A DNA stretch of 64,000 nt, taken from Rhynchobatus australiae. Lineage: Eukaryota. How positions within the stretch are numbered: the first letter of the stretch is position 1; each line of letters starts with the position of its first letter. Position numbers and translations under genes: made by a program. Shown here piece by piece: positions 25,408 to 64,000 of the stretch. The notes below the pieces were generated by a model, which was not told the DNA's origin, searched no databases, and saw only the letters and a program-made list of their open reading frames with translations. The stretch is from assembly GCA_034780895.1 (NCBI GenBank), contig JAUZTB010000135.1:84507058-84571057 (forward strand), in the 5' to 3' direction.

Positions 25408-25530
25408 TGATGTTCTGATGATGTCCTGAAAGGAGTTCTGATGAAGGGTCTCGACCTGAAACATCGACTGTTTATTTCCCTCCATAGATACTGCCTGACC
25501 TGGTGAGTTCCTCCAGCATTTTGTGTGTAT
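25408..25530 (+). mobile_element. Penelope-like terminal-repeat insertion with hammerhead-like motif and 14-bp TSD
   Basis: TSD TGACTGATAAAACC at 25394-25407 and 25531-25544; AGTT-CTGATGA-AGGGTCTCGACCT-GAAAC-ATC-GACT at 25434-25469. Confidence 0.78.
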
Positions 25531-27886
25531 TGACTGATAAAACCAGCATGATTAACAAAAAATAAATTTGCCTTACGTAACTGCTATCATCTAAGTACTT
25601 CACACACAATAGGCTACAAAATGTTTTTACAGCTGTTTTTAGACTTGTTCCCAACTTGCCAAAGAAGGTGATTTTCCAACTGCAAGCAAGTTTGGAAGTA
25701 ATATATGATATAAAGAGGAGACATTTAATAAGGAAATGTTATATGTGACCAATTCATGGAACCAAGGGACACTAAGAGGGATATAACCTTGCCAGTTCTC
25801 TAAAATGGTTCATCTAATGAAATGTCATCTAATGCATATTAACGAAGTGTTGCATTCAAATAAGGGACAGATTTGAATTTGAATCCTGAAGCAGCATTTG
25901 AATTAACATTTTGAAAATTGGGCTCAACATTAAGGGAAAGCTAAGTAACCTTTCAGGTTCCTACTGAAAACGTGTATTATCTTTCATCCAGAGTTTGTTT
26001 GGGAGTCATTGTTATTCCTATTCTCTGCCTCTTTTGTGGAGCTATATGGGTTTTCATAATTGATATCTATTTATTGATTTTATTCATAAGGGGTTAATAA
26101 AACCTTCCTTAATGATGAGATATTGATTTTTTAATTTATTTTAATAAATCTTGTTTCATATGATAGATAGTTTCAAAACATTGAAACCAGCTATCATTTT
26201 ATATTTCTTCTCTTCAATTGTCCAGAAAATATTTTAAAGCACATTTAATATTTTAGGAGAAGTGCATATTACATAAAGATTATAAACATTGATCAAGTTA
26301 TCTACTTCTGTGGTATGATTTTCCCTATCATTTAATTCAGTAAGATCATCAATCTGGGGAATTTTGCTCATGGTGTTATAACCCAGTTTACAAAAACAGC
26401 TTTATTTGGCTGGACATCATGAAAAATGGATATACTAATTGGTAATCTTTCATGTTCCCACAAGGAGATTTGCTTCAGTTGTTCTGTAAGAACTTAATTA
26501 GTTTAAATGGATTAAAGTAGTGGTAGATACCATATACTTATGACTTCATTAGCCAAGAGAAACACCAATTTATCAGTAACTTTCACCCTCATTGCCTTCT
26601 TGGCAATCTAATGGAGTGGATAACCACTTGTTACAGAATCTATTCAATTTTCACTCCATTAATTTCAGGCATATTCTTTAATGGGTGAGCTGTTCACTCT
26701 GTCAACTCACTTCCTTTGTGCTGACTATGAACACACACATCACTGTTTTGCCCTAGGTTAAGTGCGTTGCCTGCCACACCAAGAATGTGTTGTGCAAGTG
26801 TACTAGTTAGAAGAGGACTAGAGCCAACATGACAAAATTTAAACAAACCCTGGTACCCTCCAGGGGTAATGTTAAGCAAACCTGGCATCAATTCAATTGC
26901 ACATTCCTTGTTCGATGATCCAGTTCCATGCACATCCCTAACAAGTTCACTAGTTTGTCAAGCAGAGTTATGTAGCTGTTTGTTACATTTTTTGCAATAA
27001 AAAACAAAGGTTCCTGGCTGGTGTTCCACACTGTCTTCTTCAGGTTGCAGCACAACCAGTTTTGCTTTCATAGAAGTTTACCGCAACAGTGGGAAGAAAC
27101 GATTTCATCCTCCATTCCATGGGACCCTGATCTTGCACTTCCCTCAATCTCCCAGAAGATATGCATTCTAATATCTTCGACAGGATGGAGTAATCCACTT
27201 ATTCATTTTGCTTAACTAAATGTAAGTAGCTTATGTGAAGAAAATATAAGAGACACCTGCAGAAGGTAATAATTTTTACCAAAATAGTGAAATGTGGAAC
27301 TTGCTATCACGTAGAGTGACTGGAGAAAACAATATAATTTAACGGGAGAAAGGTAGATGAGGATAAAGTACAAAGGTATGTTAATAGAATGAGATGAAGT
27401 TGGGAGAAGGCTTGTATAGAGATTTTGTGCTGTAAAATTTTAAAGCAATTGTACATAATACTGCTTAGAAGAATAGTGAAGTCGTGGCAAACATATAAAC
27501 CACGTAAGTGTTTCATTATGTCAACAATGTGTTCACAGCCATCAGGTTTCCTGAGAAACCTCCATGACTAAATCAAAATTTGCAACACAATATACTTCAT
27601 TTCCCGGTCAGTCATACTTCAAACCAATAAAGAAGCATTTACTCCAGAACTGCCTCATCACTCTACTCCAGTTGCTCACAGAAAGATTTCCATGTAATGC
27701 ATTCTCCATCACTGACATGTGAGTAACCTTTATGCTGCTCAGTTCCATACAGACTTCTTTTAAGTGCATCTTGTTTGAGTGTTGCTGCTACAGTTATAAA
27801 TTTATTTTTAAAAAGTTTAGTGCTTCAAAAAACCATTCTTAATAGCTGCCCAAAAATTCTTCTTAAAGGCCTTTCATAACTCGCCT

Positions 27887-49395: not shown

Positions 49396-49719
49396 CTAAT
49401 TGCTCAGATATTTAGATGACAGTTGGTCATCTATTTGCCACATTTCCTGTTCAGTAAATTTAATCACTGGAAAACTGAGAGCTCTGCAAGCTCTTGACAT
49501 CCATGCCTAATTCTACAATCCGCAATCCCATCATGTGAGGCACCACACAGGAAGCACAAACCACAAAATTAACCAGTAATTCTTTGAAGTATCATGTGAA
49601 ATATAAAAACGGACACTTGAAAAATTAAGTTAGAAGTCACAAAGTGAATTCGGCTTTTGGTCCCTTTATAAATAACTCTACATTAAACCAATTGCTAACA
49701 TTTAACTTCAATAGCTTAC

Positions 49720-49829
49720 CTGCTACACGAACTGCAGAGGGAGGACTGCGAACCAGCGGGCTGGTGGACAGGCTAGTCAGGACCATTGCTGCTGTTACTT
49801 TGTCCATCTCTCCTTCCTCGGAGAAACTT
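49720..49829 (-). CDS. ZNF704: ZNF704 coding exon (first one in window; [36 protein letters not shown], conserved region CR1)
   Basis: Acceptor TTTATACAG, donor G|GTAAGC, 110 bp, phase 2 to 1. [23 protein letters not shown] matches ZNF704 as I recall it (ZNF395 has [17 protein letters not shown]). Confidence 0.95.
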
Positions 49830-50564
49830 CTGTATAAACAATAAAAAATCAAGACAGAATCAGCAACTACTGCCAGCCTGTATAAAGACCCATACTTTAG
49901 AGAGACAATAAACAGCAACAAAAGCTTTTAAAACAATGTTGTGGCTGGAAGTATTGTCAGTACTGCATCATCCAAGTGCTAAGGAAACACAACATAGATA
50001 GGCTAAATCTTCTGGAAAAATTACTATGTTAATTACACAGCCTGTTACTAATGCACATATCAGCCAGGAAGTTCAGGCATTGCCACTCTCCAGAATTTCC
50101 TGGTCAGGATACACTGCACTGACATCTGGGTCACACAAAATCATCTTACCCTTATGTTCTCCTTTATTTTTAAGAATCTGCTAAATTATCACATTAATTG
50201 CATATTAAACACTGCAGAAAGTTTGGACTCAAAATTGATGGCAAACATGCTGTTTAACAGTCATTGTTACTGCAAAGTCATTAAATCTTTCCAACCCAGA
50301 AGGTGAACAACTGTTGGGTCTCATTCCTCTATATCATGATTTATTCTCATATTCTTTCTTACTTTTATATTTTGACCCATTTGTTCCCCTCTCTTAATCT
50401 AAACGTTTCTTCCTGATCTTTTGATACCTTATTTGAATCTAATTGAAAAACAAAATATTGCAGGTGATGGGTATTTGGAATTTAATTTGAAAACCCCGCA
50501 AAATCTCAATTCAACCATGTTCAGCCAGAAGTGCCCAATAGGTGATCCGTCAAAGCTCACTTCT

Positions 50565-50735
50565 GAGCAACACACACAAAATGCTGGAGGAATTCAGCAG
50601 GTCAGGCAGCGTCTATGAAGAGAAATACACAGTAGACGTTTCGGGTCAAGACCCTTCATCAGGAAGAGGATAGAAGTCAGAATAAGAAGGTCGGGGGAGG
50701 GGGAGGAACACAGACTGGCAGGTGATAGGTGAGTG
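50565..50735 (-). mobile_element. Penelope-like 3' terminal fragment with hammerhead core (stem I disrupted)
   Basis: Minus strand CTGATGAAGGGTCTTGACCCGAAACGTC plus the family terminal motif. Confidence 0.72.
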
Positions 50736-61917: not shown

Positions 61918-62270
61918 GTGAGATACAGCATAGAAACAGGCCCTTCAGCCCACCTAGTCTACACCAACCAACAAACACCTATTTTTGCACTAATCCCATC
62001 CTAAACCCTTTTATTCTCCCAGATTCACATCAACTCCCCCCAGATTCTCCACTCACCTTCACATTAGGGCTATTTACAGCCCCCAACTAACCTACAAACT
62101 TGCACTTCTTTGGGGTGTGGGAGAAAACTGGAGTACCTGGGGGAAACCCAGGCGGTCACAGGGAGAATGTGCAAACTCCACACAGACAGCATCAAATGCA
62201 GGTTACTGGAGCTGTGAGACAGCATTTTACTAGCTAGCACCTGCAGCTGTGAGTCACTGTGTTGCCCTAA
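61918..62270 (-). mobile_element. HE1/V-SINE-like SINE abutting or interrupting a Rex1-like LINE
   Basis: ggggaaacccaggcggtcacagggagaatgtgcaaactccacacagacagc V-domain. Confidence 0.8.
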
Positions 62271-62599
62271 TTAGCTCTTGAATCTCCTGGTCATTCTCAT
62301 CAAACCAAAACTGTTGTTTTCTGGTAGACAAGCCAAAAAAAGTCTGTAATTACGTTGCACTTCAGGCTAGTTCAGAAGCTGCAGACACATTGTGGTTTCC
62401 ATTGCCTGGGGCTCATCAGATTGTCTGTAAACTGCTGAATGAAGACTGGTAATTGGAATTGCACTCTGCTAAATCTCAGAAATTCAGCAAGGATACTGTC
62501 TGTCTTGAAGCCTTGTTTCCCAGCTGATTACAGCCTTTCTGACTTCTTGTCAGTCAAGGATGACAGCGAGACGGTCACTCCTCAATAAGGAGGTTGGGA

Positions 62600-62925
62600 C
62601 CTGGAGCATCACACTCTGCTTCAAAAGGGCATCAACCATACCAGTGCCCAAGAAGAGCAGTGTGAGCTGCTTCAATGCCTATCACCAGCAGCACTCACAT
62701 CTGCTGTGATGAAGTGCTTTAAGAGGTTGGTCATGGCTAGAATTAACTCCTGCCTGAGCAAGGACCTGGACCCACTGCAATTTGCCTACTGCCACAACNN
62801 NNNNNNNNNNNNNNNNNNNNNNNNNNNNNNNNNNNNNNNNNNNNNNNNNNNNNNNNNNNNNNNNNNNNNNNNNNNNNNNNNNNNNNNNNNNNNNNNNNCT
62901 GGGACTGTGTGTCAGAATTGGTGAA
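62600..62925 (+). mobile_element. Rex1/Babar RT internal fragment
   Basis: [49 protein letters not shown]. Confidence 0.85.
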
Positions 62926-63050
62926 AAAATTTTAAAAATGGTCATTTTAACTCGCAGAGAAGGTGACAGGAGGACTGGCCAGGAGAAAGTCAGTATGTCT
63001 GAGAAGGCAATAGCAGATTACATGGGTTAGTGAGTTAGTTAGAGGCAGAT

Positions 63051-63191
63051 ACAGAGACACCAGAGATTCTGCAGATGCTGGAATCTGGAGCAACACGCAC
63101 AAAGCGCCAGAGGAACTCAGCAGGTCAGGCAGCATCTGTGGAGGGAAATAAACAGTCGACGTTTCGAGTCGAGACCCTTCATCAGGACTGC
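63051..63191 (-). mobile_element. 141-bp Penelope-like terminal-repeat insertion with 14-bp TSD
   Basis: Flanked by AGTTAGAGGCAGAT at 63037-63050 and 63192-63205; contains the hammerhead plus the ctgcagatgctggaatc...gaactcagcaggtcaggcagcatc motif seen in several other copies. Confidence 0.8.
63153..63190 (-). ncRNA. Minimal type-I hammerhead ribozyme motif (Penelope-like element type)
   Basis: RNA CAGUC-CUGAUGA-A-GGGUCUCGACUC-GAAAC-GUC-GACUG: perfect 5-bp stem I, intact core, stem II hairpin, palindromic ACGU in place of stem III, GUC cleavage triplet. Confidence 0.8.
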
Positions 63192-63432
63192 AGTTAGAGG
63201 CAGATTAGGCCTTTTTGTCTGTTTTACTATTATGCTTTGCTAACAGCAGGGCAGTGGGACATACCCAGCAAATCAGGCTGTACTAATGGAGAGAGAAACA
63301 TTACATATGGGTGACTGGCAAAAATTGCCAATCCTGATACAGAAATGAAAGAGTGAGTTACGTACCATTCATAAGTTTACTACAGTTGGATATTGATCAT
63401 CAATGCAACTAAGATGTTACTGAGGCCGTTGA

Positions 63433-63474
63433 CACCAAAGTGGAGTGGCAGGTCACCAAAGTGGAGTGGCAGGT
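63433..63474. repeat. Perfect 21-bp tandem duplication CACCAAAGTGGAGTGGCAGGT x2
   Basis: Seen directly. Confidence 0.9.
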
Positions 63475-63524
63475 ATGCATTATGTCACAGACTGCAAGAA
63501 GAGACGTGGTGAAGGACTCAATGT

Positions 63525-63650
63525 CCTGATGCAGGGTCTCAACCCACAACACCGACCATCCCTCAGCCTCCACAGATGCTGCCTGACCTACTGAGTTCTT
63601 CCAGCAGTTGTTGTGTTACTCCAGATTACAGCATCTGCAGTATTTTGTGT
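63525..63650 (+). mobile_element. Degenerate Penelope-like terminal fragment
   Basis: gtcctgatgcagggtctcaaccc...cagatgctgcctgacctactgagttcttccagc...cagcatctgcag; inverted relative to the 63051-63191 copy. Confidence 0.7.
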
Positions 63651-63734
63651 CACTGAGCACTTTGACGTGATTGGGAAGGAAAGAACATGACATCCAAAAT
63701 CACCAACCAATCACATTTGTCCTACATAAAAATA

Positions 63735-64000
63735 TAGCAGCCTGCTCAATAGGCACCTCATCCAACAACCATTCACTCACTCCACCAGTGAGACACAGCA
63801 GCAGCAGTCTGTACCATCTACAGGATGCACTGCAGCAACTCACCTCGACTCCTTATACTGCATCTTCCAAACGCACCACCTCTACCGGCTAGAAGGACAA
63901 GGGAAGCAAAAGCACGGAGACCACCACCACCTGGAAGTTGCCCTCTAAGTGTTTACAGGACGGCTTTGAATCAGTGGACTGGACCAGATTCGGCGATTCA
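63735..64000 (+). mobile_element. L2/CR1-group LINE 3' remnant joined to a Rex1-like fragment at the window edge
   Basis: tgtaccatctacaggatgcactgcagcaactcacc motif, then LQDGFESVDW from about 63950. Confidence 0.55.

What the first reader, a model, noticed from the sequence alone, without database searches (positions are those of the whole stretch)
63037..63205. Intact hammerhead ribozyme on a 141-bp TSD-flanked mini-retroelement, sense to the ZNF704 pre-mRNA
Seen: the minus strand reads CAGUC-CUGAUGA-A-GGGUCUCGACUC-GAAAC-GUC-GACUG. Stem I is a perfect CAGUC/GACUG, the core is intact with one extra A after A9, and predicted cleavage is after GUC (between 63158 and 63157). The insert is bounded by a perfect 14-bp duplication and its 5' end falls almost exactly at the start of the ribozyme. 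Established: Penelope-like elements carry minimal type-I hammerheads whose palindromic stem III usually requires dimerisation. Inference: this is a young solo terminal repeat or a retrozyme-like unit, and because it is sense within the long upstream ZNF704 intron it could cut nascent RNA. The ribozyme class is known; the solo TSD-flanked unit and its intragenic placement are what merit checking.
Basis: partly seen in the sequence, partly recalled or inferred. Interest (0 to 1): 0.7.

Follow-up and report, generated by a model that had tools for sequence, protein, structure and literature searches.

The report
Solo Penelope ribozyme end, ray intron
This 141-base insert is one of many thousands of short end pieces of a known jumping gene (Penelope-like) in a ray-type fish; its tiny self-cutting RNA motif is intact but likely silent in the ZNF704 intron, while copies across the genome suggest that the element's RNA likely starts, capped, right at the ribozyme.

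Summary
Observation confirmed: 141-bp insert (63051-63191, minus strand), perfect 14-bp target-site duplication, intact minimal hammerhead, sense in a 77-kb ZNF704 intron. It is the terminal unit (pseudo-LTR end plus tail) of a very abundant Neptune/Nematis-type Penelope-like element: longer copies run on into an RT-thumb/CxxC/GIY-YIG frame. It is not a retrozyme (no tandem). The motif is the published min-HHR, inactive as a monomer in the cases tested. Here no intact sense partner is near, and an antisense copy 334 nt away is predicted to bury it in a duplex, so cutting of ZNF704 RNA is unlikely. The scan has noted such copies repeatedly in this and other genomes. What I did not find in print: family 5' ends pile up at the A of stem I, not at the cleavage site; 77 of 100 examined copies start there and 47 of those carry an extra G (A 16, T 14), the known footprint of a copied cap. 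The short units therefore likely are run-off copies of a capped RNA that starts at the ribozyme. Interest modest.

The parts
63051..63191 (-). Solo terminal unit (pseudo-LTR end plus tail) of a Neptune/Nematis-type Penelope-like element
   Evidence: 86% identical to the 3' end of L150, which carries RT-thumb, CxxxCxxC linker and GIY-YIG upstream; 3459 first-look candidates in the genome
63192..63205 (.). Target-site duplication, copy at the element's 5' end
   Evidence: 14/14 identical to 63037-63050
63037..63050 (.). Target-site duplication, copy at the element's 3' end
   Evidence: abuts the insert
63153..63190 (-). Minimal type-I hammerhead: stem I 5 bp, intact core, extra A, stem II 4 bp, loop-less ACGU palindrome; predicted cut 63158/63157
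   Evidence: sequence; stems I and II form at p about 0.85 in isolation; only fully intact motif among 8 core matches in 264 kb
63189..63191 (-). 5' junction: extra G at 63191; A at 63189 is the family's preferred 5' end (inferred transcription start)
63051..63088 (-). Optional 'tail' between the two preferred 3' ends of the family (boundary approximate)
   Evidence: 3' ends of 89 copies: 31 at unit positions 93-111, 40 at 129-141
63523..63643 (+). Older antisense copy of the same family, 334 nt away, predicted to pair with the ribozyme copy in the pre-mRNA
   Evidence: 78% over 123 nt; fold -266.5 kcal/mol, z -13.4; hammerhead stems fall to p 0.0
50565..50666 (-). Nearest same-strand copy, same intron, 12.4 kb downstream; core intact, stem I broken (1 of 4 pairs)
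49715..49831 (-). ZNF704 coding exon 3, first exon downstream of the insert
   Evidence: tblastn with ray ZNF704 proteins

Best explanation
The insert is the solo terminal unit of an abundant Penelope-like retrotransposon, placed with a 14-bp target-site duplication in ZNF704 intron 2, and its inherited minimal hammerhead is likely silent there. Shown: identity with the parent's 3' end, the duplication, the motif, the sense placement. Inferred: the parent's GIY-YIG nuclease nicked the target and its RT started at the outer 'tail' site; copying likely ran about 140 nt to the 5' end of a capped RNA that begins in stem I (family mode at the A, 63189), which is why so many units begin at the ribozyme. 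Inferred: the motif needs a second hammerhead, and probably the element's protein, to build stem III; here no intact sense partner is near and the antisense neighbour, transcribed first, would pair with it.
For: Parent link: longer copies continue upstream into a pyrimidine-rich 3' UTR and a GIY-YIG frame; L150 frame has RT-thumb-like sequence, CxxxCxxC and the GIY-YIG motif and its 7 homologs carry PF00078 (5 of 7), PF26215 (7 of 7), PF01541 (1 of 7). Abundance: 6971, 5154, 2531 and 2108 exact matches to four short family motifs, 0 for reversed controls; 40,844 nuclease-domain candidates. PLE hallmarks: two 3'-end modes (31 and 40 of 89) and adjacent inverted copies (20 of 74). Silence: a single min-HHR showed no cleavage and dimers only low cleavage (PMC4209133); the anole PLE hammerhead does not cleave without protein and no RNA-seq ends were found at its site (PMC11167929); predicted duplex here. 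RNA 5' end; untemplated G is read as a copied cap for L1 and SVA (PMC4859970, PMC9341517).
Against: The motif is better preserved than almost all relatives (all four CpGs kept in 2 of 41 rows; 5 of 46 copies intact by a lenient rule), although it was picked for being intact. Folding is an equilibrium prediction; co-transcriptional folding could differ. No RNA data were available. This copy starts G-C-A, not at the modal G-A junction, and a G before the C is not enriched (13 G, 19 A of the first 100 of 326), so for this one copy a plain truncation cannot be excluded. The pairing neighbour is only 78% identical.
Confidence: 0.82

Rival explanations
1. Same parent and same silence, but this unit is an ordinary chance 5' truncation of the element's 3' end, and the pile-up of ends at stem I comes from RT stalling, snap-back or template switching at the stem rather than from a capped RNA start.
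For: 5' ends occur everywhere along the element at 0.5-1% per base. Many ends near the ribozyme adjoin inverted copies, some joined through the 5-nt stem I complementarity. This copy's junction is G-C-A, where G is not enriched. Self-priming has been proposed for PLE inverted junctions (PMC3846280).
Against: The excess is one base sharp: about 6.5% of 5154 copies have G before the A, against 1.7% one base further up and 1.8% at the cleavage site. It holds in non-inverted copies (24 G, 13 A, 11 T; p 1.7e-4). At all other 5' ends G precedes in only 15 of 68. In TSD-bearing copies the G lies outside the duplication (e.g. L347, L354).
Confidence: 0.3
2. The solo hammerhead does cut ZNF704 pre-mRNA in vivo (as a monomer with protein help, or as a trans-dimer through ACGU with another transcript), lowering or rerouting gene output.
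For: Intact core, both stems and palindrome; sense strand. Protein-assisted cleavage is shown for one PLE hammerhead. Unusual CpG retention. One contig of another organism label crosses the 5' junction, which would fit an old, retained insertion.
Against: No monomer stem III; published monomer inactive; nearest sense copy has a broken stem I; predicted sequestration; no strand bias in this gene (5 vs 4); no pile-up of genomic 5' ends at the cut site (purine before it in 63 of 2108, and 19 of 30 examined were scored as simply continuing upstream, 22 by eye).
Confidence: 0.05
3. The 141-bp unit is an independent non-autonomous element (retrozyme or SINE-like) that amplifies as such through a circular or short RNA.
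For: Short units beginning at the ribozyme are common (an estimated 10% of copies that reach the A start there with a non-C neighbour); monomer derivatives of retrozymes are described (10.64898/2026.07.22.740005).
Against: No tandem here; ends are not at the cleavage site, as circle-derived units would suggest; the flanks and extra bases of short units are all different; no near-identical sibling among 40 scored of 3459 candidates (best 93-94%); most close copies extend into the parent.
Confidence: 0.07

Closest known systems
Minimal hammerheads (min-HHR) of metazoan Penelope-like elements (Cervera and De la Pena 2014, PMC4209133; read: parts 1-2 of 4)
   Same: Type I, helix I of 4-5 bp, extra base between positions 9 and 10.1, G10.1-C11.1 pair, palindromic 15.2-16.2 without helix III, mostly single motifs from truncated elements; reported in fish Xena, Poseidon and Neptune PLEs.
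   Different: Helix II is 4 bp rather than 7-8 bp as in the schistosome families; cartilaginous fishes are not named in the parts read (supplementary figures not seen).
Neptune/Nematis clades of endonuclease-positive PLEs (10.1101/2021.04.23.441226, passages; PMC3846280 and PMC2377424, passages)
   Same: C-terminal GIY-YIG behind a CX2-5CxxC linker, heavy 5' truncation, adjacent inverted copies, optional 30-40 bp tail, TSDs of about 8-15 bp, promoter inside the pseudo-LTR.
   Different: Clade not fixed by an RT tree; no full-length copy recovered. In D. virilis Penelope the start lies upstream of an intron whose end meets helix I; here the inferred start lies in helix I itself.
PAc, Poseidon element of Anolis carolinensis (PMC11167929; read: parts 1-2 of 4)
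   Same: Two internal RT start sites a short way downstream of the hammerhead define the tail; hammerhead needs protein; cleavage not needed for insertion.
   Different: PAc evidence is in vitro and says nothing, in the parts read, on a capped start at the ribozyme; different clade.
Non-LTR retrozymes of animals (PMC7229834, passages; 10.64898/2026.07.22.740005, parts 1-3 of 5)
   Same: Type I hammerhead on a short non-coding repeat related to PLE pseudo-LTRs; monomers dispersed, about 43% intronic in Xenopus.
   Different: Defined by tandem units with a hammerhead in each and, mostly, canonical ribozymes giving circular RNA; this locus is a single unit with a minimal motif.

Membership tests
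PLE minimal hammerhead (min-HHR) | Conserved core C3-A9, G12-A14, A15.1/U16.1, H17 | tested here: met
PLE minimal hammerhead (min-HHR) | Helix I 4-5 bp, extra base after A9, G10.1-C11.1 pair, palindromic 15.2-16.2 without helix III | tested here: met
   features listed in PMC4209133
PLE minimal hammerhead (min-HHR) | Lies in the terminal repeat of a PLE | tested here: met
   L150, L148, L149: about 360 nt behind the GIY-YIG stop
PLE minimal hammerhead (min-HHR) | Compensatory changes in helices across family members | tested here: not met
   41 copies of one family: covariation score 0.149 vs 0.163 shuffled; changes are mostly CpG decay. Decaying copies of one master are a weak test; other families not compared.
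PLE minimal hammerhead (min-HHR) | Self-cleavage as dimer | not testable with these tools
   needs in vitro assay
Endonuclease-positive PLE, Neptune/Nematis type | Single ORF with RT followed by GIY-YIG | tested here: met
   partial frames only: L150 333 aa; GIY-YIG E 7e-4, below Pfam cut-off, in L149; homologs with PF00078/PF01541
Endonuclease-positive PLE, Neptune/Nematis type | CX2-5CxxC linker before the nuclease | tested here: met
   feature
Endonuclease-positive PLE, Neptune/Nematis type | Optional tail and adjacent inverted copies | tested here: met
   31 and 40 of 89 3' ends in two modes; 20 of 74 with an inverted copy within 200 bp
Endonuclease-positive PLE, Neptune/Nematis type | Placement in an RT phylogeny | not tested
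   no full RT recovered, no reference set
Non-LTR retrozyme | At least two tandem units each with a complete hammerhead | tested here: not met
   definition
Non-LTR retrozyme | Expression as linear and circular monomer RNA | not testable with these tools
   no RNA holder listed
Domesticated intronic hammerheads of amniotes (RECK type) | Canonical architecture and orthologous conservation | tested here: inconclusive
   architecture minimal, no Rfam match; one contig of another organism label crosses the junction, not seen among pieces shown for four further runs

The most novel reading that the evidence does not exclude
The short ribozyme-led units that litter ray genomes are not truncated 3' ends but complete run-off copies of the 5' end of a capped element RNA: transcription starts on the A inside hammerhead stem I, the RT starts about 100 or 135 nt downstream, runs off the end and copies the cap. 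Genomic junctions would then map a vertebrate Penelope promoter onto its ribozyme and give in vivo support for internal RT initiation; each such unit, this one included, might keep an initiator.
Probability: 0.5. Interest if true: 0.55.

Novelty: new member of a known kind. Interest (0 to 1): 0.3.

Why it matters
The locus itself is ordinary: one well-preserved copy among many thousands, of a motif described in 2014. What could matter is the family-level footprint. The PLE life cycle, and the job of its hammerhead, are open questions; if thousands of copies record a capped RNA start inside stem I and almost none record the cleavage site, then uncleaved, capped RNA is the usual template, and the start site can be tested directly by CAGE or 5' RACE. 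If the intronic copy did cut ZNF704 RNA it would be a mobile-element ribozyme acting on a host gene, but the evidence is against that.

Tried and rejected
Rfam scan of 62000-64000: nothing at E<=1. Pfam on exon peptides: only DUF4772 for the upstream exon; none for three window exons; none for L150 and L148 frames. Long 'open frames' of 592-2219 aa were mostly assembly gaps, so no full-length parent was recovered. Cap G at this copy's own junction (G before the C): not enriched (13 G, 19 A, 68 T of the first 100 of 326), rejected as a family signal. Pile-up of ends at the cleavage site: 4 of 73 in the sample, but 2 are inverted junctions made through stem I complementarity and 2 may be alignment-end effects; genome-wide counts show at most a small excess. 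A spliced upstream exon as source of the G (the upstream sequence resembles a 3' splice site): no shared sequence beyond two bases among 49 G copies, rejected. Covariation: none. Sequencing runs: no RNA holder listed. No empty-site joint among the 15 joints shown in each (92 and 79 not shown); contigs were swamped by family copies. TSD survey: 7 of 70 copies scored against 0-3 in shifted controls, so clean duplications are uncommon. In one search copies with identical middles were merged and 9 of 30 plus 2 of 30 rows dropped; that set was not used for counts. Sense/antisense bias genome-wide could not be tested without gene annotation.

Full report
Observation. The minus strand at 63190-63153 holds a minimal type-I hammerhead exactly as described, with the predicted cut at 63158/63157. 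After GAAA comes the palindrome ACGU with no loop, so stem III cannot form within one copy. A perfect 14-bp repeat flanks a 141-bp insert. Rfam has no match. The host gene is ZNF704, closest to ray proteins; its exons lie on the minus strand, two of them beyond the window, and the insert is sense in coding intron 2, about 77 kb long with 16 gaps.

What it is. The unit belongs to a very large family: 3459 first-look candidates, 6971 exact matches to one 32-mer, 18 related hits in 106,829 bases of 12 evenly placed stretches, and 16 in the 264 kb around the gene. Most close copies continue upstream into a pyrimidine-rich region and then a frame ending in a GIY-YIG domain. In L150 a 333-aa frame with RT-thumb-like sequence, a CxxxCxxC linker and the nuclease motif is followed, about 360 nt later, by the unit at 86% identity; its 7 homologs carry RT and related Pfam domains. 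The linker marks Neptune and Nematis elements (10.1101/2021.04.23.441226, passages). Among 93 copies chosen by a mid-unit motif, 3' ends fall in two modes (31 and 40 of 89 uncensored), the known optional tail, and 20 of 74 have an inverted copy within 200 bp upstream. So this is the terminal unit of a Penelope-like element, with tail.

The ribozyme. It has every listed trait of the min-HHR of Cervera and De la Pena (PMC4209133, parts 1-2 of 4), who found single motifs inactive and dimers weakly active. The anole element's hammerhead cleaves only with its protein and leaves no RNA-seq ends (PMC11167929, parts 1-2 of 4). In one preprint 1 of 9 Xenopus dimers cleaved. Here the motif is the only fully intact one among 8 core matches in 264 kb; the nearest sense copy, 12.4 kb away, has 1 of 4 stem I pairs. 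An antisense copy 334 nt away is transcribed first and is predicted to pair with the unit (-266.5 kcal/mol, z -13.4); stems I and II drop from p about 0.85 alone to 0.5 in the unit, 0.006 with local flanks and 0.0 with the neighbour. There is no covariation among 41 copies and no strand preference in the gene (5 sense, 4 antisense). Against this reading: the copy is unusually well kept (four CpGs in 2 of 41 rows; 5 of 46 copies intact), and no RNA could be examined.

Age. Best relatives among 40 scored are 93-94% identical and the copy differs from the majority of 29 close copies at 8 of 138 positions. The perfect duplication and kept CpGs suggest it is younger than most. One contig of a run under another organism label (X4) bridges the 5' junction, 63156-63294, with 14 differences; part of that flank is itself a repeat, and no such piece was among those shown for four further runs. 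Age is open.

Where copies begin. With unit position 1 at 63191, 15 of the uncensored 5' ends fall at -1 to 4, 7.3 times the rate elsewhere (binomial p 4e-8; 7 of 2000 simulations reach this in any 6-nt window), mode at position 3, the A. Of 5154 exact matches starting at that A, 683 lack the parent's C before it. I examined the first 100 listed: 22 continue into parent sequence, 1 meets a gap, 77 start there; of the 77, 47 have G before the A, 16 A, 14 T; among non-inverted ones 24, 13, 11 (p 1.7e-4 against a genome with 20% G). One base upstream there is no G excess, nor at the 68 other 5' ends (15 G). In copies with a duplication the G lies outside it. At the cleavage site only 63 of 2108 matches have a purine before it, and most of the 30 examined simply continue; the 3 clean short ones all had G, a small hint that the RT may add this base at any template end. 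An untemplated G at full-length L1 and SVA 5' ends is read as a copied cap (PMC4859970, PMC9341517, passages). The site is a pyrimidine-purine step in a context matching the initiator consensus (consensus recalled, not from a call). PLE promoters lie in the pseudo-LTR (PMC2377424, PMC3846280, passages), and the anole RT starts internally a little way past its hammerhead. Together these imply a defined RNA 5' end in stem I and run-off copying; cap versus terminal-transferase origin of the G is not settled. This copy begins two bases earlier (G-C-A), inside the cluster but not at its mode.

Comparison and novelty. It works like, and is a member of, the PLE min-HHR class; it fails the tandem test for retrozymes (definition; PMC7229834, passages). 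Earlier notes of this scan reach the same filing for other loci; none matched the cap words or the sequence. I found no paper on this family in rays or on a cap footprint in PLEs in searches, which cover only the open library; supplements of PMC4209133 and of the 2026 preprint were not seen and may list cartilaginous-fish motifs. PMC6155905 was seen as passages. Verdict: real, ordinary locus, likely silent; a testable family-level lead on where the element's RNA starts.

Noticed in passing
genome-wide family; L313-L382, L413-L442: Single-base excess of an extra G before the stem I A in copies that start there (47 of 77), often preceded by T (29 of 49 G copies); strongest in head-to-head inverted insertions (23 of 29).
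   Followed up: yes
L193-L222, upstream of the unit: In long copies the sequence before stem I is a polypyrimidine tract ending in CAG, like a 3' splice site; in D. virilis Penelope an intron end meets helix I. No spliced copies recognised.
   Followed up: partly
L228, L241, L393, L394, L401: Inverted partners are joined exactly through the 5-nt complementarity of stem I, suggesting template switching at the ribozyme stem.
   Followed up: partly
window 63433-63474: Perfect 21-bp tandem duplication between the two opposed copies.
   Followed up: no
window 62500-62798 and 63732-63950: Fragments of other interspersed repeats flank the locus (80-90% to other loci); the first looks like LINE coding sequence and runs into a 100-N gap.
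   Followed up: no
window 25434-25532 (+): Family copy just beyond the last ZNF704 coding exon with intact core and both stems but a broken palindrome.
   Followed up: no
G000:C76:138181258-138181494 (L032): Second DUF4772 exon in the genome, probably a ZNF704 paralogue (ZNF395 or SLC2A4RG; names recalled).
   Followed up: no
runs X1-X17: The same repeat family is abundant in all eight runs laid, under seven organism labels, with the same breakpoints at 63054, 63110, 63148 and 63190.
   Followed up: no
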